IMG/VR virus record: IMGVR_UViG_3300044825_001015
Coordinates: 40,845 to 104,844 of that record
DNA length: 64,000 nt
Direction: 5' to 3' (one strand)
Origin: a virus
The first letter of the stretch is position 1. Every line of letters begins with the position of its first letter. The notes beneath the pieces are model-generated. The model searched no databases. It saw only the letters and a list, made by a program, of their open reading frames with translations, and was not told where the DNA came from. Shown one piece after another: positions 28,503-42,322 of the stretch. The translations under genes and the position numbers were made by a program.

Positions 28503-29278
28503 TTCCTAAAAAAATTTGGCAGACTTATAGAACAGAATATTCTGAACTGCCTGATTACGCAAAAGAGGCAGCCGAGACTTGGATAAATAAAAATCCAGAA
28601 TGGGAATATAACTATTTATCAGACTCAGATGTTCTAGATTTTGTTAAAGATAACTTTGGAAATAAATGGTTAAGTATTTTTAATTCATGTCCAGTTGGAG
28701 TTATGAAAGCAGATATATGGAGAATAATGACTCTATATGTGAACGGTGGAATATACACGGACCTTGATACAATATGCCATGTTCCCATCGATACTTGGAT
28801 TAAAAATATTCCTAATAAAAGAGTTATTTTAAATGCGGAGCATGAAATTCATATTCAACAATGGACATTCCTGTCAGAAGATAGCCATCCTCTTTTTTCT
28901 TATATGTTAGAAAATATAGAAGAGGCTTTTCATGATCCAGATTATTCAAACCCACATTTTGTCCATGCAATGACTGGTCCAGGAATATTTACTAGATCTG
29001 TTCTAGAGTTCCTTGATATGTGGGAACCTTCAGATCATGTAAATGGAGATATTTATATGGGAGATGAATATGCAAAGTTTAATATACATAAGGTAAATTT
29101 TATTGAAGATGTTGATAAAATTAATAATTTACCATCATCTATAGAAAATGAAATTTTTATTGTTCCATCTCATAGATTTTTTCACAATGAAGTATCTTCA
29201 CATTTATATGGAAGTCAGTCATGGAGTGACGGTCAGTACGCACAATGGATACTTGAAAGAGAGAAATATGCAAACTAA
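28499..29278 (+). CDS. Glycosyltransferase, GT32 / DXD (Och1-like)
   Basis: IPKKIWQT; KADIWR..LY..GGIYTDLD; TGPG. Confidence 0.85.
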   Translation: MIPKKIWQTYRTEYSELPDYAKEAAETWINKNPEWEYNYLSDSDVLDFVKDNFGNKWLSIFNSCPVGVMKADIWRIMTLYVNGGIYTDLDTICHVPIDTWIKNIPNKRVILNAEHEIHIQQWTFLSEDSHPLFSYMLENIEEAFHDPDYSNPHFVHAMTGPGIFTRSVLEFLDMWEPSDHVNGDIYMGDEYAKFNIHKVNFIEDVDKINNLPSSIENEIFIVPSHRFFHNEVSSHLYGSQSWSDGQYAQWILEREKYAN

Positions 29279-30017
29279 AACTATTTATGATAATAGACTT
29301 GGTAATTTAATTTTCCCAGATTATGATCACACAATATCTGGATTAATTACACAGTATGGAACATGGGAGCCAACTGAGCAAGCATGGATAGAAAATAATG
29401 TTTTTAACAATAGCATAGTTTATAATTTAGGTGCTAATATTGGGTATCATTCTTTCGTAGCATCAAAAGTACAAGGTGGTACTGGTAGGGTTATAGCAGT
29501 AGAGCCATCAAAAGATCTATGCGATTTGATAAAACTAAATTGTAAAAATTTAAATATAAATAATATCGAAACATTTAATTGTGCAGTAACGGATAAAGAT
29601 GGTCAGGATTTAATATATTACTCAGAAAATAATTGTGGAGATAACAGAGTATCCAATAAAAATGCTGGGAATAAGAGTGAGATAATTAACTGTCTTACTA
29701 TTAATAAACTTATCGAAAAGGTCGGTGATTATCCAGATATTATTATTATGGATATACAGGGCTGGGAAACTAATGTTATAAATCAATTAGGAGAGCCAGA
29801 GAGAAGTATTAAGATTCTATTCGAATTTACCCCAAGTTTTATAATTCAAATGGGTTGGGACATAGAAGATGAAATTTATAAAATAGAAAACTCTGGCTGG
29901 GAAATTAAAGATATTCTAGGAAATCCTATAACACTATCTGATGTGTATAGAAATTATTTAATAGATAGAACTCCTGAAAACTTTTTTGTTAACTTATCTG
30001 CTGAATGGAATAAATAA
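29268..30017 (+). CDS. FkbM-family methyltransferase
   Basis: LGANIGYHS, AVEPS, MDIQGWE, FEFTP. Confidence 0.85.
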   Translation: MQTKTIYDNRLGNLIFPDYDHTISGLITQYGTWEPTEQAWIENNVFNNSIVYNLGANIGYHSFVASKVQGGTGRVIAVEPSKDLCDLIKLNCKNLNINNIETFNCAVTDKDGQDLIYYSENNCGDNRVSNKNAGNKSEIINCLTINKLIEKVGDYPDIIIMDIQGWETNVINQLGEPERSIKILFEFTPSFIIQMGWDIEDEIYKIENSGWEIKDILGNPITLSDVYRNYLIDRTPENFFVNLSAEWNK

Positions 30018-31058
30018 ATGAAATTATATAAAAACTCAACTCTATGCTTCGATGATATTTTACTAGTACCACAATATTCTGATGTAGCAAGTAGGAAAGA
30101 AGTAGATATTTCTGCACATATAGGAGGCGGCGGAAAGGGAATCTCAATGAGCATACCAGTCATAGCCGCACCAATGGATACTGTATGTGACGGTAAAATG
30201 GCCTACGCAATCAGAAAACTAGGCGGCTTTGGCATTATGCATAGGTACATGTCAATAGATGAGATGAGAGAAGAACTCACCTTTATTAGATCTACTGACC
30301 CAGTTTCTTTAGGTGTTGCAGTAGGCGCTAAAGGAGATTACCTAGAGAGGGCTTTTGCTGCTGTCTCAAATGGTGCCCACCTTATTCTTGTCGATACTGC
30401 TAATGGTCATAGCGAGTATGCAATAAATGCTGTTAAGGAAGTTCGTCGTAATATTGGAAATAAAGTTCATATAATGGCTGGTAATGTTTCAACATATGAT
30501 GGATTTATGAGACTTAATGATGCTGGCGCAGATTCAATTAGAGTAGGAATTGGTGGAGGATCTGTATGCACAACTAGAATAGTTAGTGGTCATGGAATGC
30601 CAACACTAGCATCTATCTTAGACATAAGATCAAGGTTAACTTATGGCGATGGCGCTTCTATAGTTGCAGATGGCGGTATCAGAAATAGCGGAGATGCAGT
30701 AAAGGCTCTGGCAGCAGGAGCAGATGTAGTCATGCTTGGAAGTTACCTTGCTGGAACAGATGAATCTCCTGGAGAGGTATATAGATCTGAAGGTAAGAAG
30801 TTTAAAATCTTTAGAGGCATGGCTAGTGCTGAAGCACAAATTAGTGCAAAAGGAACTGTATCTGTAGCAGAAGGAGTAGAAACTACAGTACCTTACAAGG
30901 GTTCCTTAGAAAAAATACTTGAAGAATTTAAAGGTGGCATAGGTAGCGGATTATCATATACTGGTGCCCACAATCTCAAGGAATTGCATGAAGATTCTAT
31001 GTTTATTAAAGTAAGTCAGGCAAGCCTTAGTGAAAGTAGGCCACATGCAGCACATTGA
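30018..31058 (+). CDS. guaB: IMP dehydrogenase / GMP reductase family, CBS-less
   Basis: FDDILLVP, APMDTV, GIGGGSVCTTR (catalytic Cys), ADGGIR, RGMAS. Confidence 0.88.
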   Translation: MKLYKNSTLCFDDILLVPQYSDVASRKEVDISAHIGGGGKGISMSIPVIAAPMDTVCDGKMAYAIRKLGGFGIMHRYMSIDEMREELTFIRSTDPVSLGVAVGAKGDYLERAFAAVSNGAHLILVDTANGHSEYAINAVKEVRRNIGNKVHIMAGNVSTYDGFMRLNDAGADSIRVGIGGGSVCTTRIVSGHGMPTLASILDIRSRLTYGDGASIVADGGIRNSGDAVKALAAGADVVMLGSYLAGTDESPGEVYRSEGKKFKIFRGMASAEAQISAKGTVSVAEGVETTVPYKGSLEKILEEFKGGIGSGLSYTGAHNLKELHEDSMFIKVSQASLSESRPHAAH

Positions 31059-31375: not shown

Positions 31376-31549
31376 ATGCCTTTATACACTTACTACTGTA
31401 ATGTTTGCGACATTGATGTAGAAATAATTTCTAAAATAGAAAGTAGAGATGAGCAGCGTTGTCAAGATTGTGGATATAAACTTATTAGGAATCTAGATAG
31501 ACCAGGAATGGTTTGGAGTCCTACTCGCAATGGTGGATACTCTCTCTAG
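31376..31549 (+). CDS. FmdB-family Zn-ribbon protein (not in the ORF track)
   Basis: MPLYTYYCNVC...CQDCG. Confidence 0.7.
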   Translation: MPLYTYYCNVCDIDVEIISKIESRDEQRCQDCGYKLIRNLDRPGMVWSPTRNGGYSL

Positions 31550-31557
31550 GAGGAATA

Positions 31558-31857
31558 ATGCCTCGTAAGAAAAAAGAATATGAATATGTTCCATATAGCA
31601 TGAATCCAGATATTCATGTTTACTATGAACTACAATTCCTTAAAGATGTAATTAAGCCAGGTGACAGAATAACCTTTAAGGGAGTTCGCGGTGAGTTTAC
31701 ATTCGTACATATGGCACATAACTCTCAACTAGATGTAACGTGGATTGACTGTAGGAATCCAGTAACTGGTGAATATAGGTCATTCTATGTAGATAGGCTA
31801 AAGGGATTAGTAAGAGCAAAGAAGAGCAGAAGGAAGAAGCAACTTGTCAGAGATTGA
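31558..31857 (+). CDS. Hypothetical SH3-like protein
   Basis: GGAGG SD before ATG 31558; YRSFYVDRL. Confidence 0.55.
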   Translation: MPRKKKEYEYVPYSMNPDIHVYYELQFLKDVIKPGDRITFKGVRGEFTFVHMAHNSQLDVTWIDCRNPVTGEYRSFYVDRLKGLVRAKKSRRKKQLVRD

Positions 31858-32359
31858 GTTAACTAGTTCGTTTGATCAAATGAACTTAGTTGTAGAAGAA
31901 TTACTAAAAGGTAAAAATCCAACAGACATTGCTAAGTTCCTTGGAATTAAAAGATCTCAGGTTCTAGAACATATTGATACCTGGCGTGAATTAGTATCTG
32001 GAGATAGCAGAATCAGAGAAAGGGCCAAGGAAGCCTTGGCTGGTGCAGACCAGCATTATTCAATGATTATTCAGCGTGCATGGGAAACAGTAGATCAAGC
32101 AGATGCAAATCAGCAGTATAATACTAAAGCCTCCGCATTGAAGATGATTGCAGATGTTGAGCAAAAGAGAATTGACATGCTTCAAAAGGCTGGCCTTTTA
32201 GAAAATAATGAAATGTCTGCCCAACTTTTAGAAACTGAGCGTAAGCAAGAAATTCTTATGAATATTTTAAAGGAAGTAACATCTGACTGTAATCATTGTA
32301 AAGTAGAAGTTGCTAGAAGATTATCAGAAGTTACTGGCAAGGTAGAGCCAATTGATTGA
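31844..32359 (+). CDS. HTH protein, probable terminase small subunit
   Basis: N-terminal HTH; directly upstream of terL. Confidence 0.6.
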   Translation: MSEIELTSSFDQMNLVVEELLKGKNPTDIAKFLGIKRSQVLEHIDTWRELVSGDSRIRERAKEALAGADQHYSMIIQRAWETVDQADANQQYNTKASALKMIADVEQKRIDMLQKAGLLENNEMSAQLLETERKQEILMNILKEVTSDCNHCKVEVARRLSEVTGKVEPID

Positions 32360-34142
32360 TTTTAGTGACTTTATAGATGCACTTGACGGTGACCAATTTG
32401 AAGAGGTCCCAGCAGATATAGAGGAATTTGTCACTAATAATGACTACTTAGATTTACCCCCTCTTTCTGAATATCAATATCAATCTATTAGGGCAATGAC
32501 CCAAATTTATAAAAAGGATACTCTAGTAAAATGGCTAGGCGAGGAAGAGGGAATTAAGAGATGGAATCAGACATGCAAGGAAGTTATTCTTCAGATAGGG
32601 AAGGGCGGGGGGAAGGACTTTATCTCTACTATCGGGTGTGCCTATGTTGTCCACCTATTGTTGTGCCTAAAGGACCCTGCTAAGTATTATGGAAAGCCGC
32701 CAGGAGATTCAATTGACATTATTAACATTGCTATCAACGCTGTTCAAGCAAATAGGGTATTCTTTAAAGGATTCAAGCGCATCATTGAAAAGTCGGCTTG
32801 GTTCCAGGGAAGGTACATCCCAAAGGCTAACAGTATTGAATTTGATAAAGAAATAACAGTACACTCAGGACATTCAGAGGCAGAGTCCTGGGAGGGGTAC
32901 AATGTTATGTTGGCTATCCTTGACGAAATCTCAGGCTTTGAATTAGAAAATACTACAGGTCGTCAGAGTCCAAAAACTTCTGCTGCAATATATAAAATGT
33001 ATAGAGCGTCTGTTAACTCTCGCTTCCCAGATTTTGGTAAGGTCATTATGCTCTCCTTCCCCAGATTTAAGAATGACTTTATCCAGCAAAAATATAATGA
33101 TGCTGTGGCAGAAAAAGAGACTATAATAAAATCACACAGTTTTAAAATAGATCCAGACCTTCCTGATGGTCACGATGGAAATGAATTCACCATTGAGTGG
33201 GAGGAGGATCATATAGTATCCTACGCCCTACCCTACATCTTTGCGCTTAAAAGGCCCACATGGGAATTTAATCCGACTAGGAAAATACAAGACTTTACAA
33301 TTGCATTCTATGACGATCCATTAGACTCTCTAATGAGATTTGCCTGTATGCCTCCAGAGGCCACAGACGCATTCTTTAAGTCACGCGAAAAAATTGAAAA
33401 AGCATTTAGTAATCCTAAATTTGCTGTAGATTTTAGCGGAAGATTTGCAGAATGGTTTAAGCCAGAAGAAGGCCGTCAGTATTTCTTACACGTTGACTTA
33501 GCCCAAAAGCATGACAATTGTGCTGTTGCAATGGCACACATTGAGGGATGGGTACAGATGAAGATCGCTGGCACGATGACAGAGGCGGCTCCTAGAGTTG
33601 TAGTAGACGCCGTAAGATATTGGCAACCAACATCTACCACTAGCGTAGATTTATCAGAAGTAAAAGATTACATTATTGAATTGCGTGAGCGCGGGTTTAA
33701 TTTGGGAGTGGTCACGTTTGACCGCTGGAATTCTCATGATATGATGCAACAATTGAAGCATTATGGAATTAATACAGAGTTATTGTCTGTCGCAAAAAAG
33801 CACTATGAGGACATGGCCCTTTTAGTAACTGAAGAAAGAGTATACGGGCCAGAGATAAAACTTCTTATTGATGAATTATTACAGTTGAGAATTATCCGTG
33901 ATAAGGTAGACCACCCAAGAAAGGGAAGTAAGGACTTAGCAGACGCAGTTTGTGGCTCCATATATAATGCTATATCAAGATCCAGAAGAGACAATATGCA
34001 GGAAATAGAAATTTATTCCTACGATATGATTGCACAAGATAGCGAGGAAGAGATAAAATTAAGGATGGGACGACAAAGAAATAAAGATTTAATCATCCCT
34101 CCTGCTCTACAAAATGCTATTGACAGCATGGAAATAATTTAA
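32352..34142 (+). CDS. terL: Terminase large subunit
   Basis: GKGGGKD, ILDE, LHVDLA, TFDRW, KVDHP..GSKDLADA. Confidence 0.9.
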   Translation: MIDFSDFIDALDGDQFEEVPADIEEFVTNNDYLDLPPLSEYQYQSIRAMTQIYKKDTLVKWLGEEEGIKRWNQTCKEVILQIGKGGGKDFISTIGCAYVVHLLLCLKDPAKYYGKPPGDSIDIINIAINAVQANRVFFKGFKRIIEKSAWFQGRYIPKANSIEFDKEITVHSGHSEAESWEGYNVMLAILDEISGFELENTTGRQSPKTSAAIYKMYRASVNSRFPDFGKVIMLSFPRFKNDFIQQKYNDAVAEKETIIKSHSFKIDPDLPDGHDGNEFTIEWEEDHIVSYALPYIFALKRPTWEFNPTRKIQDFTIAFYDDPLDSLMRFACMPPEATDAFFKSREKIEKAFSNPKFAVDFSGRFAEWFKPEEGRQYFLHVDLAQKHDNCAVAMAHIEGWVQMKIAGTMTEAAPRVVVDAVRYWQPTSTTSVDLSEVKDYIIELRERGFNLGVVTFDRWNSHDMMQQLKHYGINTELLSVAKKHYEDMALLVTEERVYGPEIKLLIDELLQLRIIRDKVDHPRKGSKDLADAVCGSIYNAISRSRRDNMQEIEIYSYDMIAQDSEEEIKLRMGRQRNKDLIIPPALQNAIDSMEII

Positions 34143-34158
34143 TATAGTAATACTATAC

Positions 34159-34232
34159 GGGGCGGTGGCGCAGTCGGTGAGCGCAGTACTCTTATAAGGT
34201 AAAGGTCGTGGGTTCAAGTCCCACCCGCCCTA
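34159..34232 (+). tRNA. trnI: tRNA-Ile (anticodon UAU)
   Basis: Cloverleaf GGGGCGG/CCGCCCT, loop CT-TAT-AA, T arm GTGGG-TTCAAGT-CCCAC, discriminator A; no encoded CCA. Confidence 0.88.
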
Positions 34233-34233
34233 C

Positions 34234-34364
34234 GGTTACAGATGGCAATATCTTAGGATGGTGTAGTTACATACAAATATCCCGTTATAGCGAGTCTGCC
34301 GTTGAGTGCGTTGAATTCGTTTCTAGCGTCTTTCGTGCAAAAGGATTCGTAGCCATCTGTAATC
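34234..34364 (+). ncRNA. Unidentified structured RNA between tRNA-Ile and tRNA-Pro
   Basis: 13-bp closing stem GGTTACAGATGGC/GCCATCTGTAATC plus internal stems; fills the inter-tRNA gap exactly. Confidence 0.6.
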
Positions 34365-34367
34365 CTA

Positions 34368-34441
34368 CGGGATGTGGCGCAGTTTGGTAGCGCACCTGTT
34401 TTGGGAACAGGGGGCCGAAGGTTCAAATCCTTTCATCCCGA
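34368..34441 (+). tRNA. trnP: tRNA-Pro (UGG)
   Basis: CGGGATG/CATCCCG, anticodon arm CCTGT-TTTGGGA-ACAGG. Confidence 0.92.
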
Positions 34442-34442
34442 C

Positions 34443-34730
34443 ATGGAAATTTTATTTGTAATTACAGCAGGCACCTTGCTTGCAGAAGGATTTGCTTTTG
34501 TGCTTTTAATGAAGCATATAAAGCAAATTCGTTCTGAGTTTAATATGTATCAGAAGAACCAAAACGATGCAGATATAATTTCCGAAACTATAGATATGTA
34601 CCAGGAAAAAATTATAGAACTTGAAGAAAAAAATAATAAGTTATCAATAGAAAATAAACTTCTTCAAGAAAAACTATCTAAAATAAATAAGCAAATGAAG
34701 CAGATCAGCGATCATTTTAAAACAAACTGA
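34443..34730 (+). CDS. Membrane-anchored coiled-coil protein
   Basis: ATG after a 1-nt gap following tRNA-Pro; N-terminal TM helix. Confidence 0.6.
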   Translation: MEILFVITAGTLLAEGFAFVLLMKHIKQIRSEFNMYQKNQNDADIISETIDMYQEKIIELEEKNNKLSIENKLLQEKLSKINKQMKQISDHFKTN

Positions 34731-34742
34731 TATAATTAATGT

Positions 34743-34979
34743 ATGGGAGACTCAATGGAAACTGAAGTTCAGGGAAAGGAAAGAGTTCTTACCAGAAGCG
34801 ACAGGTGCGATGCTCCAAAGTGTCCAGCCCAAGCGTGGGTTATTGCTAAGTTTGTAACTGGAGAATTGTATTTCTGTGGGCACCACTTTGACAAGTATGA
34901 AGTCAGTATCATTCGTGATGCATATGACATTGTAGATGAAAGAGAATTTATCAATGCTAAATCAGAATCTTCTGCTTAG
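34743..34979 (+). CDS. Small Cys/His actinobacterial-type protein
   Basis: DRCD..CPAQA..LYFCGHH; leaderless after TGATATAAT. Confidence 0.6.
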   Translation: MGDSMETEVQGKERVLTRSDRCDAPKCPAQAWVIAKFVTGELYFCGHHFDKYEVSIIRDAYDIVDEREFINAKSESSA

Positions 34980-35463
34980 TAAGAAAGATAAAATAAAACT
35001 TGTTAGAGAGCGTGACGGATTTACATGCGCTATCTGCCTAAAAGATTTTAAAGCAAATTCTGATGTAACGTTAGATCATTGGATTCCCAAATCAGCGGGT
35101 GGATCTGAGGATATATCTAATCTAAGACTTGCACATAAAAAATGTAATGCATGGAAAAGCGATAGGATACCTAATGAAGATGGAACAATTCCTCCACGCC
35201 CTCCAAGATCTAATTTTCAGGATAGAAAGCGGAGAAAGCAGGAGATACTAGAAAACCTTTGCACAGATTGTTATGACGGAAGGCTTTTGCTGCAGGGGGA
35301 GACATGCCCATATTGTGGATCTCCAGCGGGTCCAGAAGACTGGCCCCATTGGGCAAGGCGTCCAGCAAACAAGTGTGATCATACTCCGCCAGAATGGTGT
35401 TGGGCATGTTCTATAGGAATAGTTGACCGAAAGCCAGTATTTTTGGTACTATTAGAGGGATAG
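34954..35463 (+). CDS. HNH endonuclease with C-terminal Cys-rich region
   Basis: RDGFTCAIC..TLDHWIPKSAGG..NLRLAHKKCN. Confidence 0.85.
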   Translation: MLNQNLLLSKKDKIKLVRERDGFTCAICLKDFKANSDVTLDHWIPKSAGGSEDISNLRLAHKKCNAWKSDRIPNEDGTIPPRPPRSNFQDRKRRKQEILENLCTDCYDGRLLLQGETCPYCGSPAGPEDWPHWARRPANKCDHTPPEWCWACSIGIVDRKPVFLVLLEG

Positions 35464-35467
35464 GTAA

Positions 35468-35538
35468 TCCCCATTGGTGTAATGGCAGCACAAATGACTT
35501 TGGATCATTTAGTCGTAGTTCGAATCTATGATGGGGAG
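35468..35538 (+). tRNA. trnQ: tRNA-Gln (UUG)
   Basis: TCCCCAT/ATGGGGA, AATGA-CTTTGGA-TCATT. Confidence 0.9.
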
Positions 35539-35550
35539 CGGGAGGTAAAA

Positions 35551-35799
35551 ATGCCTTGGAAGATAGTAAGAAACTTTGGTGATTGCAATGGATATGCAGT
35601 AGTCAAAGAGGGGACTAGTGAGATTGAAGGTTGTCATTCTACTAGGTCCGCAGCAGAAGCACAGCAACGTGCGCTATATGCATCTGAAAATAAGTCAATT
35701 CATAATGATGATGAAGAGGATGATGAGCGCAGAGGTAAGCGCAGAAATGAATCCCACAAATTCTGGGATGGCGCATTTATTGAAAAGGGTTATAATTGA
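35551..35799 (+). CDS. Small protein with C-terminal KFWDGAF motif
   Basis: GGAGG SD; MPWKI..GCH..AAEAQQRALYASE. Confidence 0.65.
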   Translation: MPWKIVRNFGDCNGYAVVKEGTSEIEGCHSTRSAAEAQQRALYASENKSIHNDDEEDDERRGKRRNESHKFWDGAFIEKGYN

Positions 35800-35938
35800 C
35801 ACGCGATAAAGTAATTGAGAAACTTAAGAATAAGAGAATGGAGAATAACGCTATCTCTAGCGAAATCTCCTCATACATTGCAGGATGGAATGGTGCAATC
35901 GACTATGCCATTCAGCAACTAAAGAAGAAAGATTAATT

Positions 35939-36352
35939 ATGAAGAAGATTATTATTGCTACTGCAATTTCTGCTGTAGCGCTAGTTGGATGTACTTCACA
36001 GTCAGCACAACCAGCACCTACTGTAACTATTACAAAGGCTGCACCAGCACCATCACTAGATGATCCAGAGGTAATCCCACAACCAGCCATGGGTAATGAG
36101 GAACTGTACCTTATTGGTCTTAAGTCGATGGATAATCCGCTTATCAATATTGCTACAGACGAGCAACTTCTTGATATGGGCTACTCCGTATGCGAGGCTC
36201 TTGAATCTGGGTTCACAGTAGAGGATATTATTCAGTATATGGCTACAGAGATGGCAAGAGAGGGTCTTACTTCTGATTACCAGTCAGAGGCAGTAGGATA
36301 TATTATTGGGGCTGCAGATACCGCTCTGTGCCCAGGATCTAGTACATTCTAG
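35939..36352 (+). CDS. DUF732-like lipoprotein
   Basis: Lipobox LVGC; GYSVCEAL..AADTALCP. Confidence 0.75.
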   Translation: MKKIIIATAISAVALVGCTSQSAQPAPTVTITKAAPAPSLDDPEVIPQPAMGNEELYLIGLKSMDNPLINIATDEQLLDMGYSVCEALESGFTVEDIIQYMATEMAREGLTSDYQSEAVGYIIGAADTALCPGSSTF

Positions 36353-36360
36353 ATCCAAAC

Positions 36361-36431
36361 GCGGCTGTGGTGTAGAGGTAACACATCTGCCTTCCAAGCA
36401 GTTATCGCCAGTTCGATTCTGGTCAGCCGCT
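36361..36431 (+). tRNA. trnG: tRNA-Gly (UCC)
   Basis: GCGGCTG/CAGCCGC, loop CT-TCC-AA. Confidence 0.92.
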
Positions 36432-36433
36432 CT

Positions 36434-37105
36434 ATGAGTGATTTAAAGTATTCTGTTGTTGAATATGATACATACTTAACATATGCTATATGGACGCCAG
36501 AAAGAGAAGATTCTGATTTTATAATAGGATATGGAACAGAAGTATCAGTAATTTATCCAATAGTAGAATATATTTATCCTAACGATTATCCAAATAATTC
36601 TGGGTGGAATAGATTATTAAAATCCAAAATTTTTAAAAACCAAAGAGGAGAGTATTCTGGTCAAGGATGTGATGAATCAGGAACAATGCCATTATTTAAT
36701 TTACATTATTCTTTACCAGTAATATTTAGAGCGTTTTCACACAAAGACTACAAGGCGCTATTTACAATTCTCATGGCACTAGCATTAGTAGATAGTAAAA
36801 ATAGATTTGGGACAGAGGGAGTGTCGTCTTTTGAACTATCACCAGAGATGCTTAATTTCTTAGAAAGAACTGATAAATTCTGGGGTAGCAGAAGCGCAGA
36901 AATACACATGAAGGCCGAACTTCTTGAAGAATATGATTCTGACAATTGGGAAGTAAAACTTCCTAAAAACAAAATATTAGACATTGAAAAAAATGTAGTA
37001 TTGCAATCTAAGGCAGAATTCAAGCGCAGAATATTTTACAAAAAATATAGCAATAGAGTAAACTTAAGTAATTGTGAGCAGTTAGAAATAGACTGGCCCC
37101 AGTAA
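36434..37105 (+). CDS. Hypothetical protein
   Basis: Starts 2 nt after tRNA-Gly; its stop codon lies inside tRNA-Arg. Confidence 0.6.
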   Translation: MSDLKYSVVEYDTYLTYAIWTPEREDSDFIIGYGTEVSVIYPIVEYIYPNDYPNNSGWNRLLKSKIFKNQRGEYSGQGCDESGTMPLFNLHYSLPVIFRAFSHKDYKALFTILMALALVDSKNRFGTEGVSSFELSPEMLNFLERTDKFWGSRSAEIHMKAELLEEYDSDNWEVKLPKNKILDIEKNVVLQSKAEFKRRIFYKKYSNRVNLSNCEQLEIDWPQ

Positions 37106-37168
37106 CTCAGAGGATAGAGTGTCGGACTTCTAATCCGTTGGTCGCAGGTTCGAATCCTGCCTGGGGCG
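37096..37168 (+). tRNA. trnR: tRNA-Arg (UCU)
   Basis: GCCCCAG/CTGGGGC, loop CT-TCT-AA. Confidence 0.92.
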
Positions 37169-37169
37169 C

Positions 37170-37682
37170 GTGGAAAAAATATATCATAAATTTCATATAT
37201 CTGACTATCTTAATATAAAAAGTGATTTGATAGAAAAGATACACCTCTCTGAGTCAAAAAAGGACTTTGAGAATATATCAAGGACAGACTGGGATATTAA
37301 AAACGATGACCTTGATAGAGACTGGGCTAAGTGCTTTTTAGATAATTTTTATAAAAAAATAAAGTACACATATAACCAAATTGGATTTAAAAAAATAGAA
37401 ATACAAAATATCTGGTTCCAAGAGTACGATTACCAGTCGAGTTTTGAGTGGCATAACCATCCAGGAGCAGACTTTGCAAGCGTATTCTTTTTGAATTTTT
37501 CAAAAAATAATCCTGGAACAGAATTCATGGTAAATGATAAAATATTAAGAGCAGAAGTAGAGGAAGGAGATATAATTATATTTCCAGCAACTATAATGCA
37601 TAGATCTCCACCAAATTTATCTGATGATAAAAGAATTATTATAGCCTTTAATGTAAAAGTAAATGAAAAAAATATGTCATAA
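37170..37682 (+). CDS. 2OG-Fe(II) oxygenase / cupin (TIGR02466-like)
   Basis: WHNHP..EEGDIIIFPA..HRS..RIIIAFN. Confidence 0.75.
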   Translation: MEKIYHKFHISDYLNIKSDLIEKIHLSESKKDFENISRTDWDIKNDDLDRDWAKCFLDNFYKKIKYTYNQIGFKKIEIQNIWFQEYDYQSSFEWHNHPGADFASVFFLNFSKNNPGTEFMVNDKILRAEVEEGDIIIFPATIMHRSPPNLSDDKRIIIAFNVKVNEKNMS

Positions 37683-37770
37683 TTGTAAAAATGAAAAGGA
37701 TCTAATAGAATTCCTTTTAAAGTCAGGGCAACGAGTTGGCGCTAGAGGAATTTGTTTAGATTGCTTCAAT

Positions 37771-37850
37771 GCCAGATAGTCCCCAAGGTGGGGAAGCGGT
37801 CTGTAAAACCGTCGCCATCGGCATGGTTGGTTCGATTCCAACATCTGGCA
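37771..37850 (+). tRNA. trnY: tRNA-Tyr (GUA)
   Basis: GCCAGAT/ATCTGGC, loop CT-GTA-AA, long variable arm. Confidence 0.88.
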
Positions 37851-37854
37851 CTTG

Positions 37855-37926
37855 TGGCGTGTGGCGCAATGGCAGCGCAATCGGCTGTTAACCGATGGGT
37901 TGTAGGTTCGAATCCTACCACGCCAG
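37855..37926 (+). tRNA. trnN: tRNA-Asn (GUU)
   Basis: TGGCGTG/CACGCCA, ATCGG-CTGTTAA-CCGAT. Confidence 0.92.
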
Positions 37927-37927
37927 C

Positions 37928-38914
37928 GTGAAGAGTATATTTGTTTCTGTAGTTTCTTTTAATGAACCTTTTTTAAAAGAGACTATTTTAAGTGCAATAA
38001 AAAAATCTAGTAAGCCAGAAAGAATATACTTTGGTGTTGTAGAACAACGTACTGACTCAAACTTTGCAGACCTAAAAGAAATAAAAAATGTAAAGCATAT
38101 TTCTATGCAAGTAGGAGGCCCACTTGGAGTAGGCATTCCAAGAAAACTAAGCATGGAACTTCTAGATAATCAAGATTACTGTCTAATCATAGATTCTCAT
38201 ATGATTTTTAATGACAACTGGGACGAAAATATAATCAGAAGAATAAAGCACATAAGTAAAATTTATTCTGAAAAAGTTATTATATCTCAGCATTTACCAG
38301 TATTAGATGTAGATGATAATAATTTAGTTTTATATCCAGAAAAGAAAAAAGACACACCATGTTATTTAAAATTTGATGGAATATTTATTGATGACATTCC
38401 AATACCAAATGGTCATGAATTTTATCAGCAGTACGCACTCACATGCCACTATTTGTTTTCACTTTCAAAATCCTTCAAGGAAGTAGTGTTTGATCCACGA
38501 ATATTTTATTTCGCAGAAGAGTCATCCTTAGCGATGAGATTTATAACTAGAGGATATAAAATATTTTCTACGAGATATTTCCCTATGTTTCATCTACAAA
38601 AAACAAATGGTAAAAAAATTAAAAGTTGGCAGACATTAAATGGAACATCAAGGCTTCAAGACGATATTGAAATAGTTTATAGTATATTTTCGGGCAAGGA
38701 AATAGGTGTATGGGGGGCACCGTCAAAATGTAGGTTAGATGATTTTTTGGCGGAATCTAGGCTAGACATATCATATTATATGTCTGGGGTAGACCATGAT
38801 TTAGATATAAATAAGCAAATAAGAAGTAAGATAGTAGACATGTTTGATAATGGTAATGATTTTTATGAAAACCTATATCAAAATTTTATTCCAGCAATAA
38901 GGAGTCCTAAATGA
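37928..38914 (+). CDS. GlcNAc transferase, GT60-like (Skp1-hydroxyproline GlcNAc-transferase family)
   Basis: SIFVSVVS..PERIYFGVVEQ..LIIDSHMIF..WDE; EE motif. Confidence 0.75.
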   Translation: MKSIFVSVVSFNEPFLKETILSAIKKSSKPERIYFGVVEQRTDSNFADLKEIKNVKHISMQVGGPLGVGIPRKLSMELLDNQDYCLIIDSHMIFNDNWDENIIRRIKHISKIYSEKVIISQHLPVLDVDDNNLVLYPEKKKDTPCYLKFDGIFIDDIPIPNGHEFYQQYALTCHYLFSLSKSFKEVVFDPRIFYFAEESSLAMRFITRGYKIFSTRYFPMFHLQKTNGKKIKSWQTLNGTSRLQDDIEIVYSIFSGKEIGVWGAPSKCRLDDFLAESRLDISYYMSGVDHDLDINKQIRSKIVDMFDNGNDFYENLYQNFIPAIRSPK

Positions 38915-40590
38915 AGGTTTTAGGGTTGTCTCCGTTTCATGATGCTGGCGCAGTCCTAGTAGAAGACGGGTTTGTAAAAAAATATTTTAAAGAAGAAAGA
39001 CTTAATAGAATAAAAAGAAGTTCCTGTCCAGAATTATCTATAGAGAAATGTTTAGAGGGCGTAGAAGAAGTTGAATTATTTTCATACTCTGCAGCGACAC
39101 ACAGATTATCATTCGCAAAAAGAGATGAAGATTTATCTTATAAGTTTCTACATTGGCAAGATGCCGTTAAAAAGCATTCAAAATTAATAGATTCAATAGA
39201 TTTATCTAGAATGCATCATCTCCAGCACGCATCCACTTCATTTTATAATAGCGGGTTTAGTGATGCTGCTGTCATAGTTGTCGATGGTAGAGGCTCTAAC
39301 TTTGGAACTATAGTAGAAACAGAAACAATATTTTATGCAGAGTATCCAGATATTTTTACTCCTGTATATAAAGCATATGAAAAAACATTTAGATTTAATA
39401 AAGAAGATGTAGATCGGGAAAGAAAAAGGCTTCCAGATTGTGAAATAAAAGTATCTTCTAATTTAGGAATAACTCACCTATACTGCACGGCAACACATTT
39501 GATTAATGAATCATTCTTAGAAAATGGAAAGACTATGGGCCTTTCCGCGTATGGAGATGCTAGCATTAATTACGAGCCGCTACTCTTGGAGGGAGAAGCC
39601 CTAGTAGATCCAGGCAAATTTATTATTTTTGAAACTCCAGAATTAGCAGAATCACCGCTTGAAGTTATTTATCATAAAGACTATGTAGGTAAACAAAATA
39701 TTGTAACTAAAGAAAACTATCATATTTATGCTAATTATGCTTTACATGTTCAAAAAGAAACAGAACGTGCATTAGAAATATTAGTAAATAAGGCAATAGA
39801 AAAAACTGGTAGTAAAAACATATGTTTGGCAGGAGGCTATGGACTTAATATAGTTAATAATTTAAAGTTGCTTCAAAAGTTTCCTGGGGTAAAGTTTTAT
39901 TTCGATCCAATGTCTGATGACGGAGGTACTTCAATCGGTGGAGCAATGATTGCTTATAGATCTGTAACTAAGGATCGTGAACCGAAACCTATTAAAAATA
40001 ATTTTATACATGGGATAGATCATGATATAAGTAATATAAAGGGTACCAGCGTTTCAGAAAAAGATATTGCTAAAATAATTTATTCTGGAAATATAGTAGC
40101 AATGTATTACGGTCTAGCGGAGGCTGGACCAAGGGCACTAGGAAATAGATCCATCTTGTTTGATCCTAGAATAAAAAATGGAAAAGATATAATTAATGTA
40201 GTAAAAAAAAGAGAGTGGTATAGGCCATTTGCTGCCTCTATGCTAGAGGAAGATGCCACTAGGTACTTTGACTACATTGATAATATTGGTTATGAATACA
40301 TGCTAGTTAATGCAATAGCAAAGCCAGATACTAAAGACATAATCCCCTCCGTTATTCATGAAGATGGATCATGTAGAATACATATAGTAAAAGATACTAG
40401 CCACCCACTATTTAAATTACTTACAAGTTTTAAAGAAATAACTGGCATCGGAGTTCTTCTTAATACAAGTTTCAACCTTGCTGGAGAGCCACTTATTGAA
40501 ACTCCACAGGAAGCAATCGGCACCTGGAAGATTTCAGATATAGATTGTTTATGGTTTCCAAAGATACAAACTGCTCTAATAAAAACATGA
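38911..40590 (+). CDS. Carbamoyltransferase (NodU/CmcH/TobZ family)
   Basis: HDAG, EERLNR, HHLQHA, GKTMGLSAYG, EAGPRALGNRS, KKREWYRPFA, LNTSFN. Confidence 0.92.
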   Translation: MKVLGLSPFHDAGAVLVEDGFVKKYFKEERLNRIKRSSCPELSIEKCLEGVEEVELFSYSAATHRLSFAKRDEDLSYKFLHWQDAVKKHSKLIDSIDLSRMHHLQHASTSFYNSGFSDAAVIVVDGRGSNFGTIVETETIFYAEYPDIFTPVYKAYEKTFRFNKEDVDRERKRLPDCEIKVSSNLGITHLYCTATHLINESFLENGKTMGLSAYGDASINYEPLLLEGEALVDPGKFIIFETPELAESPLEVIYHKDYVGKQNIVTKENYHIYANYALHVQKETERALEILVNKAIEKTGSKNICLAGGYGLNIVNNLKLLQKFPGVKFYFDPMSDDGGTSIGGAMIAYRSVTKDREPKPIKNNFIHGIDHDISNIKGTSVSEKDIAKIIYSGNIVAMYYGLAEAGPRALGNRSILFDPRIKNGKDIINVVKKREWYRPFAASMLEEDATRYFDYIDNIGYEYMLVNAIAKPDTKDIIPSVIHEDGSCRIHIVKDTSHPLFKLLTSFKEITGIGVLLNTSFNLAGEPLIETPQEAIGTWKISDIDCLWFPKIQTALIKT

Positions 40591-40609
40591 TTGCTGGTAT
40601 AATTGTAAT

Positions 40610-40975
40610 ATGGAACTCTATGATGAATTAACAGAAGAAGAAAAAGCATATCATGATGCAATGGTTTCTATTGCAGAAAGATTTGGCCCGTTTGACCAGG
40701 GAACATCAAGTATTTGGGTTGGATATGAAGGCCCAGAAGACAATGAAGATGCTCAAATTGGTGTTAAGTGTGCTAATTGCTCCCTGCATATTGAGAGAGA
40801 AGACGGTCAATTAGGATGTGCTATCCTTTCTTATCTAGTTCATCCAGAAGCAAAGTGCCGCTTGGCAGCAATTCCAGATGGCTATGTAAATGCATCAATG
40901 GATGATGAAGATGATGATCCAAATGACGACGATGATATGATGGGCAAATTCTGGGGCGGATCTTTTCTTAAATGA
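40610..40975 (+). CDS. Acidic 4-Cys protein with C-terminal KFWGGSFL motif
   Basis: CANC..C..C; leaderless after TGGTATAAT. Confidence 0.6.
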   Translation: MELYDELTEEEKAYHDAMVSIAERFGPFDQGTSSIWVGYEGPEDNEDAQIGVKCANCSLHIEREDGQLGCAILSYLVHPEAKCRLAAIPDGYVNASMDDEDDDPNDDDDMMGKFWGGSFLK

Positions 40976-41262
40976 ATAATGTAATTACCACGGAGACAAT
41001 CCGTGGCGGAGGTGGCGGAATAAAGAATCCAGACCACTCAGATGGTAAAATAAAAATAGGTAAATCTCCGCTTAAAGTTCGTCGCGGGAAGAAGTAGTGT
41101 TCACTTTTTATTGCTTAGTTAAACACAATGGTAACTACTACCTCAGACCTTACATTACTTTGTATAATAATATGATTGAAATTGTAAATTATCCAAAATC
41201 GTTGACCATATCGTAATATTCCGGTATAATAGAATTCATGTTGCCGCCACAAGGAGGTCAAT

Positions 41263-41877
41263 ATGACGACAATAAACCGATTTGGTGCTGCATTAGTATC
41301 AACAGTAACAGTATTATCAATGCTACTAATCTCTCCAAACCTGGCGTATGCTAAGTCTACGCCTTTGGCGGAAGGTACGGGTAACTTTGCCACCGCTGAT
41401 ACATTAGAAAGAAGGGCAATAACAGATAGAAACTGGACTTTGCCATCTAACTGTAATGATAAGCAGGCAAAGATACTATTTAAGGCGGGTTTTAATAGAC
41501 CTGGAATGCTAAGAGGAGCCTGGGCAATTACCTGGCGTGAATCTAAGCACCAGAATCTTTCCGAAAGCAGTCCTTGGTATTCAGGTGCGTTGGGTACTTG
41601 GCAAATTCAAACAAGTGCCTGGTCAGGAAAATCCTGGTGGTCTAGGGATAATATGCTAGACAAAGATAAGCAATCAGAAATTGTAAGAAAGCATTTCCTT
41701 AATGATGGTATGCATAATTGGGGATATGACTATTCATTTAAAAATGACTCATGGCATGAAGATGCAGGAATGTATTATTCACTATGGGGTTCTGGACTAA
41801 CGTATTCATGGGTAATCGCACCATTCAATACTGGATGGTCGTTGTTCCCAAAGAAATGTACACCTGAAAAGATTTAA
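41263..41877 (+). CDS. Secreted lysozyme-like / lytic transglycosylase
   Basis: Signal peptide (AYA); WAITWRES catalytic Glu; GTWQI; AAGGAGG SD. Confidence 0.7.
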   Translation: MTTINRFGAALVSTVTVLSMLLISPNLAYAKSTPLAEGTGNFATADTLERRAITDRNWTLPSNCNDKQAKILFKAGFNRPGMLRGAWAITWRESKHQNLSESSPWYSGALGTWQIQTSAWSGKSWWSRDNMLDKDKQSEIVRKHFLNDGMHNWGYDYSFKNDSWHEDAGMYYSLWGSGLTYSWVIAPFNTGWSLFPKKCTPEKI

Positions 41878-41930
41878 ATGATAGAATTATATTCTAGGCG
41901 CAAATAAAATTGCGGCAACAGCCTAGGATC

Positions 41931-42003
41931 GCCACAGTAACTCAGTTGGTAGAGTACCCGCCTTGTAAGCGGAAAGTCATCGGTTCGAATCCGATCTGTG
42001 GCT
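41931..42003 (+). tRNA. trnT: tRNA-Thr (UGU)
   Basis: GCCACAG/CTGTGGC, loop CT-TGT-AA. Confidence 0.92.
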
Positions 42004-42004
42004 C

Positions 42005-42322
42005 ATGGACTATAGTAATGAAGAAATAGAACACTTCATGAACTATTTAGAAGATGAAGGCGTTCTTGAATGGGTAGGTATGAGTGACGATGGAGAAAGA
42101 ACGTTCGTCTTTAATTTTGAAAAGATGTACTTTGTTTTCCCAGAACTATATCATGCGATGATGGAAGAATTAAATAAAGAGTTGTTAAATCTTTACGACC
42201 TAGGGTTAGTTACTATAGAATACGATACAAATCTGCAGGCAAAATTTAGAATAACAGATGCTGGTAAAAAATATTTAGAAGAAAATGGTGTTCCAATACC
42301 AGAAGATTGGGAAGACGAGTGA
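42005..42322 (+). CDS. Winged-helix-like acidic protein
   Basis: LYDLGLV...FRITDAGKKYL. Confidence 0.55.
   Translation: MDYSNEEIEHFMNYLEDEGVLEWVGMSDDGERTFVFNFEKMYFVFPELYHAMMEELNKELLNLYDLGLVTIEYDTNLQAKFRITDAGKKYLEENGVPIPEDWEDE

What the first reader, a model, noticed from the sequence alone, without database searches (positions are those of the whole stretch)
34234..34364. Unknown ~131-nt structured RNA framed exactly by two tRNAs
Seen: it begins 1 nt after tRNA-Ile and ends 3 nt before tRNA-Pro. It has a 13-bp closing helix (34234-46/34352-64), a hairpin GGATG..TGTA-GTTACA-TACA..TATCC (34256-82), and a long arm GCGAGTCT/GGATTCGT (34290-97/34343-50) capped by a GCGTTGAA..TTCTAGCGT hairpin, forming a three-way junction. 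It is GC-richer than its surroundings and I do not recognise it as tRNA, tmRNA, SRP or hammerhead. Inference: RNase Z and RNase P processing of the flanking tRNAs would release it as a discrete phage ncRNA, possibly a protein or RNAP decoy or an anti-defence RNA.
Basis: partly seen in the sequence, partly recalled or inferred. Interest (0 to 1): 0.8.

Follow-up and report, generated by a model that had tools for sequence, protein, structure and literature searches.

The report
Phage RNA antisense to ribosomal helix 69
The 131-nt gap between two phage tRNA genes encodes a real, conserved folded RNA whose only invariant stretch is the reverse complement of helix 69 of the host's (actinobacterial) 23S ribosomal RNA, so the phage may aim an RNA at a key functional hairpin of the host ribosome.

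Summary
Window 34234-34364 (+) lies between tRNA-Ile(UAU) and tRNA-Pro(UGG) and folds as described (-46.6 kcal/mol, z -5.2). It matches no Rfam family.

It belongs to a family of 51 distinct sequences (77-144 nt) in uncultured freshwater phages. Most copies sit between tRNAs, with at least 13 different tRNA pairs. The 12-13 bp closing helix covaries at all 12 modelled pairs, and its G-U pairs indicate the + strand. The 3' domain is swapped between subgroups.

The new result concerns the invariant block CUUAGGAUG(G/U)UAUAGUUAC (34252-34270). It is antisense to 23S rRNA 1910-1929(31): the helix 69 loop and 3' strand plus the linker to H70. The match fits the Actinobacteria-specific H69 (CCAUCC, on the same helix as the HGC69a probe site) better than the E. 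coli form. The phage carries two WhiB genes, which fits an actinobacterial host.

My best reading (about 0.55) is a tRNA-processed antisense RNA that pairs with H69 of free or nascent 50S subunits. Expression, processing and pairing are untested.

The scan flagged this stretch twice, and a likely relative in another genome.

The parts
34120..34148 (+). Promoter-like site TTGACA-17 nt-TATAGT. It overlaps the end of the terminase gene and ends about 10 nt before tRNA-Ile.
   Evidence: This is the best consensus match (11 of 12) in 31500-36500. It is conserved in close relatives. An equivalent TTGACA-17/18-TAGAAT precedes the first tRNA of the array in the other subgroups. Consensus match only; part of the conservation may be coding constraint.
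34159..34233 (+). tRNA-Ile(UAU), the upstream frame. It has no encoded CCA.
   Evidence: ARAGORN; Rfam tRNA, 67.4 bits.
34234..34364 (+). The structured RNA (131 nt), a member of a new family. Model R1 scores it 85.7 bits.
34234..34246 (+). P1, 5' strand of the closing helix. It pairs with 34352-34364.
   Evidence: In the family, the 12 modelled pairs are 99.3% paired and all 12 show changes on both sides. Sliding the partner by 1-3 columns drops pairing to 23-46%.
34252..34270 (+). Invariant block CUUAGGAUGGUGUAGUUAC, antisense to 23S rRNA about 1910-1929 (E. coli numbering): H69 loop, H69 3' strand and the linker to H70.
   Evidence: 14 of the 15 invariant alignment columns lie in this block. 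Antisense matches to E. coli rrlH at 1920-1910 and 1929-1923. Near-perfect antisense to an actinobacterial-type 23S. H69 is the best RNAduplex site in 23S+16S (-32.7 kcal/mol with flanks, z = -5.0). Net about -11 kcal/mol after opening both hairpins.
34256..34282 (+). P2 hairpin: GGAUG/UAUCC, then UGUA/UACA, with loop GUUACA. It partly cages the antisense block. CUUA (34252-55) and the loop (34266-71) are predicted single-stranded.
   Evidence: The inner stem covaries A-U / G-C / U-A.
34290..34350 (+). 3' arm, the variable peripheral domain. It is replaced by other helices in the other subgroups and nearly absent in the 77-79 nt forms.
34352..34364 (+). P1, 3' strand.
34365..34367 (+). 3-nt linker (CUA; CCA, CCU or UG in relatives) before tRNA-Pro.
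34368..34442 (+). tRNA-Pro(UGG), the downstream frame. An ATG (34443) follows directly.

Best explanation
The element is a phage small RNA gene of a previously uncatalogued family.

Biogenesis (inferred). It is transcribed with the tRNA array, probably from a sigma-70/sigmaA-like promoter just upstream. It is cut out by the enzymes that mature the flanking tRNAs: RNase Z or another 3' processing activity on the upstream tRNA, and RNase P on the downstream tRNA. A 12-13 bp terminal helix (P1) then clamps its ends.

Business end (shown as sequence complementarity, inferred as function). A 19-22 nt block is invariant while everything else covaries or is swapped. This block is the antisense of the host-type (actinobacterial) 23S rRNA from the loop of helix 69, through its 3' strand, into the H69-H70 linker (E. 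coli numbering 1910-1929/31). Half of the block is exposed: CUUA in the junction and GUUAC in the hairpin loop. The rest sits in a weak A-U-rich hairpin. This is the layout of a toehold or kissing-loop antisense RNA.

Proposed action. The RNA pairs with H69 where that helix is free, in nascent 23S rRNA or dissociated 50S subunits, and unfolds it. H69 forms intersubunit bridge B2a and contacts the A- and P-site tRNAs. Occupying it would take 50S subunits out of subunit joining, or would create a roughly 20-bp duplex that exposes 23S rRNA to double-strand-specific cleavage. Either way the phage would gain control over the host ribosome pool (shut-off, remodelling or recycling). Which of these outcomes occurs is not known.
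For: Real RNA, + strand:
- Fold z = -5.2 on +, -2.1 on -.
- 86 hits, 51 distinct sequences, all co-oriented with the tRNAs.
- P1 is 99.3% paired, with 12/12 pairs changed on both sides and 21 G-U/U-G cells that would be A-C on the other strand.

Processing context:
- In most copies the neighbours are tRNAs within 0-3 nt and 2-10 nt, in at least 13 different tRNA pairs.
- Conserved promoter-like sites lie upstream of the arrays.

Antisense core:
- 14 of the 15 invariant columns lie in one block.
- On a real E. coli rrlH the block matches antisense at 1920-1910 (11 nt) and 1929-1923 (7-9 nt).
- The leftover mismatch (invariant A-U-G opposite E. coli GG) disappears on the actinobacterial form ...GGUGGUAACUAUAACCAUCCUAAGG.... 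This form was found in at least 119 metagenome contigs and in a complete rrn operon, L168. The L168 23S also carries the target of the Actinobacteria-specific probe HGC69a on the same helix.
- Antisense identities to L168 23S: L054 19/20, L051 20/22, L120 13/13, most others 19/20 with one missing nt.
- Actinobacterial 23S genes are known not to be cut by I-CeuI, whose site covers this sequence (PMC2790883).

Statistics:
- H69 is the best hybridisation site in the whole 23S for 48/51 members on E. coli 23S.
- It is the best site for 8/8 members on the actinobacterial-type 23S+16S: -25.6 to -32.7 kcal/mol, z -2.4 to -7.2, 0-1 of 25 shuffles as good.
- 42 of 78 short BLAST hits of the family against a whole rrn operon fall on this site, antisense.
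- Net about -11 to -12 kcal/mol after paying to open both hairpins.

Host phylum, from independent evidence:
- Two WhiB genes in the phage.
- The terminase is about 60% identical to those of Streptomyces and Gordonia phages.

Substitutions in the block are often wobble-compatible with the target: A to G opposite U1917, U1923 and U1926, and C to U opposite G1929.

H69 can be invaded by antisense oligomers with loss of translation. An anti-H69 PNA is described in PMC10777018, citing Kulik et al. 2017.
Against: - No expression, end-mapping or interaction data. The public RNA runs held only other organisms' tRNA-Pro, and all runs were available only as contigs.
The actinobacterial form was taken from metagenomic rrn operons.
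- The target is invariant, so intermolecular covariation cannot be tested. The argument rests on conservation plus complementarity.
- Half of the block is paired inside the RNA. In 70S ribosomes H69 is engaged in bridge B2a. Accessibility in a real 50S subunit is not modelled.
- A one-nucleotide discontinuity opposite A1918-C1921 is kept in nearly all members. A simple blocker would not need it.
- A phage that carries many tRNAs depends on translation, so wholesale 50S inactivation looks counter-productive unless it is timed or selective.
- I noticed the match by eye after considering other targets, so some multiple testing applies. The later fit to the actinobacterial variant was, however, a successful prediction.
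- Some members (L017, L018, L043 type) lack flanking tRNAs, so tRNA-coupled release is not universal.
Confidence: 0.55

Rival explanations
1. Guide RNA rather than blocker. The RNA pairs with H69 as above, but its role is to present a specific 23S nucleotide to an enzyme for modification or site-specific cleavage. The candidate site is the conserved discontinuity opposite A1918-C1921. The variable 3' domain or P1 would recruit the protein.
For: - It uses the same complementarity as the best explanation.
- Nearly every member keeps exactly one imperfection at the same place in the duplex: one nt missing, or a mismatch in the full-length variants L054 and L051.
- From established knowledge: H69 carries clustered modifications (pseudouridines 1911/1915/1917; 2'-O-methyl-C1920 made by TlyA in mycobacteria). 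In archaea and eukaryotes H69 is a target of guide RNAs.
Against: - No box C/D or H/ACA features. The antisense stretch is contiguous rather than a bipartite pocket.
- No partner protein was identified. No RNase III, RtcB, CCA-adding enzyme or Ro is encoded by the phage.
- The discontinuity may simply reflect the need to keep the P2 hairpin.
- RNA-guided rRNA modification is unknown in bacteria.
Confidence: 0.12
2. Protein-binding or decoy RNA. The invariant block is the binding site of a host or phage protein. The complementarity to H69 is a coincidence, or reflects mimicry of something that H69 contacts.
For: - A conserved internal-loop/hairpin module on a covarying scaffold is also typical of protein-binding RNAs.
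- The helix that closes the conserved block shifts position between subgroups: GGAU/AUCC, UUAG/CUAA, ACC/GGU or CUCC/GGAG. This shows the sequence itself, not one fixed fold, is under selection, which also fits a sequence-specific protein.
Against: - A 19-22 nt antisense match centred on one rRNA hairpin, the best site in 23S+16S for every member tested, is unlikely by chance. BLAST E is down to 6e-5 against a single 23S, and 0-1 of 25 shuffles do as well.
- The match improves precisely on the phylum-specific variant of the presumed host.
- No candidate protein co-occurs. The neighbours are only tRNAs, small ORFs and HNH genes.
Confidence: 0.2
3. Processing element or aberrant tRNA: either a self-cleaving ribozyme or spacer structure that helps to cut the tRNA array, or a degenerate or unusual tRNA-like gene.
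For: - It sits in the tRNA array.
- P1 is 12 bp, the length of a tRNA acceptor/T-arm stack.
- The short forms are 77-79 nt.
Against: - No tRNA, tmRNA, hammerhead, twister, pistol, hatchet, HDV-like or other ribozyme match at E <= 10.
- No cloverleaf by ARAGORN.
- No CUGAUGA/GAAA core in the sequence.
- The flanking tRNAs already provide RNase P/Z sites.
- This reading does not explain an invariant rRNA-antisense block.
Confidence: 0.05
4. Non-functional remnant or DNA-level element: a captured antisense fragment of an rRNA gene, or a protein-binding DNA site.
For: The block is similar to rDNA.
Against: - Similarity to rDNA stops after 20-22 nt.
- Compensatory changes and strand-specific G-U pairs in P1 show selection on an RNA.
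- The block stays invariant across phages whose terminases are only 64-97% identical, while the flanks diverge.
Confidence: 0.02

Closest known systems
Bacteriophage T4 stable RNAs C and D (species 1 and 2; rnaC, rnaD)
   Same: Small stable non-coding RNAs (139 and 119 nt) encoded directly behind a tRNA in the phage tRNA cluster, separated by 1-6 nt. Presumably released by the tRNA-processing machinery. Function unknown.
   Different: No homology: the family model finds nothing in the T4 locus. T4 rnaC carries a T-arm-like GGUUCGAAUCC hairpin, and ours does not. Neither T4 RNA shows a notable antisense match to E. coli 23S rRNA.
Synthetic antisense oligomers against helix 69 (the anti-H69 PNA of Kulik et al. 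2017, and the Actinobacteria FISH probe HGC69a)
   Same: They pair with the same helix. The 5' nine bases of HGC69a (TATAGTTAC) are identical to the RNA's invariant UAUAGUUAC. The PNA is reported to invade H69 and to block translation and growth (PMC10777018).
   Different: Those are man-made short oligomers. This is a natural, structured, 77-144 nt RNA that extends over the 3' strand of H69 and into the H70 linker.
Trans-acting antisense RNAs of bacteria, plasmids and phages that start pairing through a hairpin loop (CopA/CopT, RNAI/RNAII, Sok/hok type; recalled from knowledge)
   Same: The antisense segment is displayed partly in a hairpin loop and partly in a single strand. Stable terminal structure. 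The predicted mechanism is loop-loop contact followed by helix propagation.
   Different: The target would be a functional hairpin of ribosomal RNA, not an mRNA or a replication primer. Biogenesis is by tRNA punctuation.
Box H/ACA and box C/D guide RNAs directed at H69 in archaea and eukaryotes (recalled from knowledge)
   Same: Natural RNAs that base-pair with the H69 region of large-subunit rRNA.
   Different: No ACA, H, C or D boxes and no bipartite pseudouridylation pocket. Such guide RNPs are not known in bacteria.
Bacterial and phage Y RNAs (YrlA) and phi29 prohead RNA
   Same: Structured RNAs of about 100-130 nt whose 5' and 3' ends form a long stem. Some are encoded by actinophages (PMC4201824). 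The element lies close to the terminase gene, as pRNA lies close to packaging functions.
   Different: No Ro60/TROVE gene in the phage and no Rfam YrlA or pRNA match. The stem is not sequence-conserved, and there is no tRNA-like D/T module.

Membership tests
tRNA (RF00005) or tRNA-like | Cloverleaf with D, anticodon and T arms, detected by ARAGORN or the Rfam model | tested here: not met
   Only the two flanking tRNAs are called. Nothing is called inside 34234-34364, even at E <= 10. No calls in the homologous gaps either.
T4 rnaC/rnaD-type stable RNAs of phage tRNA clusters | Non-tRNA small RNA gene embedded in, and co-oriented with, a phage tRNA cluster, a few nt from a tRNA | tested here: met
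T4 rnaC/rnaD-type stable RNAs of phage tRNA clusters | Sequence or structure homology to T4 rnaC or rnaD | tested here: not met
   Model R1 finds no match in the T4 locus L136. The folds and motifs differ.
Y RNA / YrlA | Encoded next to a Ro60 (TROVE) gene | tested here: not met
   No TROVE match in the complete 104.8-kb phage genome.
Y RNA / YrlA | GNCGAAN0-1G motif near the 5' end and a conserved tRNA-like T/D module (PMC4201824) | tested here: not met
   The element contains no CGAA (sequence). No Rfam YrlA hit at E <= 10.
Self-cleaving ribozymes (hammerhead, twister, twister-sister, pistol, hatchet, HDV-like) | Match to the family covariance model or its conserved catalytic core | tested here: not met
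   No hit at E <= 10. There is no CUGAUGA...GAAA core in the sequence. Self-cleavage itself is not testable here.
phi29-type prohead RNA | Match to RF00044, in a phi29-like phage with a protein-primed genome | tested here: not met
   No Rfam hit. The phage has a large terminase and direct terminal repeats.
Box H/ACA or box C/D guide RNA | ACA/H boxes with a bipartite pocket, or C (RUGAUGA) and D (CUGA) boxes flanking the antisense element | tested here: not met
   The antisense block is contiguous, the 3' tails are CUA/CCA/CCU, and no boxes are conserved in the alignment.
Trans-acting base-pairing antisense RNA | Extended, conserved complementarity to a defined target RNA | tested here: met
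   19-22 nt antisense to 23S rRNA 1910-1929/31. This is the best site in 23S+16S for all members tested.
Trans-acting base-pairing antisense RNA | Part of the antisense segment exposed (loop or single strand) to nucleate pairing | tested here: met
   Predicted folds leave CUUA and GUUAC(A) unpaired. Prediction only.
Trans-acting base-pairing antisense RNA | Demonstrated pairing with, and effect on, the target in vivo or in vitro | not testable with these tools
   No cultured host. The public RNA runs were uninformative.

The most novel reading that the evidence does not exclude
This would be the first natural anti-ribosome antisense RNA. A phage makes, by tRNA punctuation, a clamped small RNA that invades helix 69 of the host's 23S rRNA, using a phylum-specific sequence. 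It thereby inactivates, marks for degradation or re-tools free and nascent 50S subunits. By extension, some of the many orphan structured RNAs in phage tRNA arrays might be directed at host stable RNAs.
Probability: 0.5. Interest if true: 0.95.

Novelty: new variant of a known kind. Interest (0 to 1): 0.85.

Why it matters
Small stable RNAs in phage tRNA clusters have been known since T4, but none has an assigned function. This family offers a concrete, testable hypothesis: its only invariant sequence is antisense to helix 69, the hairpin that forms the central intersubunit bridge and touches the A- and P-site tRNAs. The match is to the Actinobacteria-specific version of that hairpin.

If confirmed, it would show that viruses can target the ribosome's RNA directly by base pairing. 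It would also be a natural counterpart to synthetic anti-H69 oligomers. And it would suggest a way to read other orphan phage RNAs: look for antisense matches to the host's stable RNAs. The phylum-specific match could also serve as a host-prediction signal for uncultured phages.

Tried and rejected
- **Rfam**, at gathering and at E <= 10: only the flanking tRNAs.
- **Homology to T4 rnaC/rnaD, and to the 6-kb Faust terminase/tRNA locus (L001)**: none. blastn found no relative in 50,697 GenBank phage records. A search of those records with the H69 region returned only contaminating rRNA genes.
- **Y RNA**: no TROVE gene.
- **Hammerhead-like core**, looked for by eye: absent.
- **Small ORF**: the AUG in P1 gives M-A-I-S-stop in some members, but the frame is not conserved. 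Rejected.
- **Anticodon-loop mimicry** (CUUAGGA like a tRNA-Leu(UAG) loop; GUUACA carrying a Tyr codon or Val anticodon): the flanks do not form an anticodon stem. Dropped in favour of the rRNA match.
- **E. coli-type H69 as target**: it leaves a bulged G and a wobble opposite the invariant A-U-G. Superseded by the actinobacterial form.
- **Second segment CCGUUAUAG** (34282-34290), antisense to E. coli 1914-1922: it matches the actinobacterial form at only 7 of 9 positions and is not conserved outside the closest relatives. Treated as minor.
- **Other conserved 3' motifs** (CCCG, GAGUC, GAGAUAGGGCAGC, CUGGAA): no recurrent rRNA complementarity. I could not derive a common 3'-domain structure. 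RNAalifold on the whole family returns only P1, and the subgroup folds differ.
- **RNAcofold of element plus H69**: the small gain (-4 kcal/mol) is an artefact, because the program must break P1 to allow the pseudoknot-like pairing. It was replaced by an opening-energy calculation.
- **Sequencing runs**: the element is held in freshwater and lake DNA runs. The RNA-labelled runs held only tRNA-Pro-like pieces of other organisms, and all runs were contigs, so nothing can be said about expression or ends.
- **Literature search** for the actinobacterial H69 string: nothing found.

Full report
**1.

ARAGORN and Rfam place tRNA-Ile(UAU) at 34159-34232/3 and tRNA-Pro(UGG) at 34368-34441/2.
- a 13-bp closing helix;
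- a hairpin with a GUUACA loop;
- a long 3' arm.

The fold energy is -46.6 kcal/mol, against -28.7 +/- 3.4 for shuffles (z = -5.2). The minus strand folds poorly (z = -2.1). GC is only slightly above the surroundings (0.427 against 0.385-0.396). No Rfam 15 family matches, even at E <= 10.

**2. It is a member of a sizeable, uncatalogued RNA family.**

The record is a complete 104.8-kb IMG/VR phage genome with direct terminal repeats. Using its terminase as a handle, I fetched 80 related loci. A motif scan of IMG/VR gave 55 more stretches. A covariance model built from 39 sequences finds 86 copies, 51 of them distinct. All are on the tRNA strand, with one copy per locus. Lengths range from 77 to 144 nt.

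The terminal helix P1 (12 modelled pairs) is 99.3% paired. All 12 pairs show changes on both sides. Sliding the partner strand by 1-3 columns drops pairing to 23-46%. Its 21 G-U cells would be A-C on the other strand, so the RNA is read from the + strand. The inner stem of the hairpin also covaries (A-U / G-C / U-A).

The 3' half is not conserved:
- The window's subgroup has one long arm.
- Other subgroups have two hairpins, one capped by GNRA or by GUAAGA.
- The shortest members keep only a 4-bp hairpin.

I could not derive a common 3' structure.

No homologue was found in 50,697 GenBank phage records by blastn. The family model also finds nothing in the T4 tRNA locus or the 6-kb Faust locus.

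**3. Context.**

In most copies both neighbours are tRNAs, 0-3 nt upstream and 2-10 nt downstream. The identities differ, with at least 13 different pairs, for example Ile/Pro, Leu/Gly, Gln/Gly, Met/Gly and Asp/Ser. What is conserved is the arrangement 'between tRNAs', not any particular tRNA. A few divergent members lie directly behind the terminase gene with no tRNA beside them.

A near-consensus promoter-like site (TTGACA-17-TATAGT, 34120-34148) ends about 10 nt before tRNA-Ile. Equivalents precede the arrays of the other subgroups.

Release by RNase P and a tRNA 3'-end nuclease is therefore the obvious inference, by analogy with T4, where rnaD and rnaC follow tRNA-Arg at 1 and 6 nt. It is not shown.

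The phage is an actinophage by independent evidence:
- two WhiB genes;
- a terminase about 60% identical to those of Streptomyces and Gordonia phages.

It encodes no Ro60, RtcB, CCA-adding enzyme or RNase III.

**4. The key result.**

Fourteen of the fifteen invariant alignment columns lie in one stretch, CUUAGGAUG(G/U)UAUAGUUAC (window 34252-34270). The helix that closes this stretch shifts between subgroups: GGAU/AUCC, UUAG/CUAA, ACC/GGU or CUCC/GGAG. The sequence itself, not one fixed fold, is therefore under selection.

I recognised the stretch as the reverse complement of the helix 69 region of 23S rRNA, and then checked this on real sequences.
- In E. coli rrlH, GUAACUAUAACGGUCCUAAGG starts at position 1910. 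Family members match antisense at 1920-1910 (11-12 nt) and 1929-1923 (7-9 nt).
- This left one bulged G and a wobble opposite the invariant A-U-G.
- A paper on I-CeuI, whose 26-bp site covers this sequence, notes that actinobacterial 23S genes are not cut (PMC2790883). That implies a phylum-specific difference.
- I scanned metagenomes for the variant I recalled for Actinobacteria (...GGTAACTATAACCATCCTAAGGTAGCG...). It gave at least 119 contigs.
- One of them, L168, is a complete 16S-23S-5S operon. Its 23S reads ACGGCGGUGGUAACUAUAACCAUCCUAAGG. It therefore carries the target of the Actinobacteria-specific FISH probe HGC69a, TATAGTTACCACCGCCGT.

Against this form the mismatch disappears: the invariant GGAUGG pairs with CCAUCC. 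The perfect antisense of 1910-1931 is ACCUUAGGAUGGUUAUAGUUAC. Members carry it in these forms:

| Member(s) | Match to the perfect antisense |
|---|---|
| most members | one nt missing (19/20) |
| L054 | full length, 19/20 |
| L051 | full length, 20/22 |
| L120 | 13/13 |
| L015, L017 | 12/12 |

**5. Statistics.**

- H69 is the best RNAduplex site in the whole 23S for 48 of 51 members on E. coli 23S.
- On the actinobacterial-type 23S+16S it is the best site for 8 of 8 diverse members. Energies are -25.6 to -32.7 kcal/mol, z is -2.4 to -7.2, and 0-1 of 25 shuffles do as well. This includes two members that missed the site on the E. coli sequence.
- Of 78 short BLAST hits (E <= 1) of the family against the whole rrn operon, 42 fall on this site in antisense orientation. 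No other site recurs comparably.
- After paying to open both the RNA's own hairpin and H69, the net interaction energy is about -11 to -12 kcal/mol. From my own knowledge, this is in the range of functional sRNA-target pairs.
- Several substitutions inside the block keep wobble pairing with the target: A to G opposite U1917, U1923 and U1926, and C to U opposite G1929. A few do not, for example G24 to A or U.

**6. How it most likely works.**

Shown:
- a conserved, structured, + strand RNA;
- tRNA framing;
- a phylum-matched antisense block, half of which (CUUA and the GUUAC loop) is predicted to be single-stranded, while the rest sits in a weak A-U hairpin.

Inferred:
- excision by tRNA-processing enzymes;
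- nucleation on the H69 loop and the H69-H70 linker, followed by strand exchange that unfolds H69.

From established knowledge, H69 forms bridge B2a and contacts the A- and P-site tRNAs. It is free only in dissociated or nascent 50S subunits. A synthetic anti-H69 PNA is reported to invade the hairpin and to block translation and growth (PMC10777018).

The RNA would therefore either withdraw 50S subunits from joining or create a roughly 20-bp duplex open to double-strand-specific cleavage. Possible purposes are host shut-off, a bias towards a particular mode of initiation, or recycling of rRNA nucleotides. A GMP-reductase-like gene lies nearby. These purposes are speculation.

The conserved single discontinuity opposite A1918-C1921 keeps the guide-RNA variant of this idea open.

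**7. Caveats.**

- There is no expression or interaction evidence. The public runs were contigs, and the RNA-labelled ones held only foreign tRNA-Pro.
- The host and its own 23S are unknown.
- The target is invariant, so intermolecular covariation cannot be tested.
- Accessibility inside real ribosomes is not modelled.
- I noticed the match by eye. The later fit to the actinobacterial variant is, however, an independent success of the hypothesis.
- A protein-binding role for the block cannot be excluded.

**8. Comparison and novelty.**

In location and presumed biogenesis the element works like T4 rnaC/rnaD, but it is not homologous to them. The T4 RNAs show no comparable rRNA complementarity. 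It fails the tested membership criteria of tRNA, Y RNA, pRNA, the known ribozymes and H/ACA or C/D guides.

It fits the computable criteria of a trans-acting antisense RNA, with an unprecedented kind of target. I therefore rate it a new variant of a known kind. There is a substantial chance that it represents something categorically new: a natural anti-ribosome antisense RNA.

Earlier notes of this scan flagged the same stretch twice, and a 134-nt look-alike between tRNA-Ile and tRNA-Pro in another genome. None of them mentioned the rRNA complementarity.

Noticed in passing
window 34443-34730, and other tRNA 3' ends in 34159-42007: An ATG follows tRNA-Pro directly (…CCCGAC|ATG). The downstream ORF (about 95 aa, coiled-coil-like) has no room for a Shine-Dalgarno sequence.
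   Followed up: partly
window 34120-34148; L029, L049, L056 and others upstream of tRNA-Asn: Near-consensus sigma-70-type promoter motifs (TTGACA-17/18-TATAGT or TAGAAT) sit in the last codons of the preceding ORF, immediately before the first tRNA of the array. They are conserved across subgroups.
   Followed up: partly
L017:5805-5910, L018:5805-5902, L043:5859-5959, L047, L041: Divergent family members (98-106 nt) lie directly downstream of the terminase gene with no flanking tRNA. Their ends must be made in another way, by a promoter and terminator or by other nucleases.
   Followed up: no
L137 (JBBALJ010000049.1, 'Bacteroidia bacterium' MAG contig of 23.8 kb), 4791-4914: The only hit in the species-representative genome collection is a contig with the same phage tRNA array (Asn, Met, Gln, element, Gly, Thr). 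It is probably a phage contig mis-binned into a Bacteroidia MAG, not evidence for a Bacteroidia host.
   Followed up: partly
window 34282-34290: The window's subgroup carries a second short segment, CCGUUAUAG. It is antisense to E. coli-type 23S 1914-1922 but matches the actinobacterial form at only 7 of 9 positions. Together with CUUAGGA it would flank the P2 hairpin. Its significance is unclear.
   Followed up: partly
window 29148-31058: An FkbM-family methyltransferase (289 aa) and a GMP reductase/IMPDH-family protein (346 aa, E 4e-103) are encoded about 3-5 kb upstream of the RNA, just before the terminase region. A link to the RNA (rRNA modification, purine salvage) is only speculation.
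   Followed up: no
window 34743-35463: A DUF7455 protein (78 aa) and an HNH endonuclease (175 aa) lie between tRNA-Pro and tRNA-Gln. HNH genes and small ORFs are interspersed in the tRNA arrays of the relatives too.
   Followed up: no
phage collection hits H77-H96: Several short GenBank records labelled as phages (Listeria, Staphylococcus, Escherichia, Salmonella and others) consist of bacterial 23S rRNA genes. This looks like contamination in the collection.
   Followed up: no
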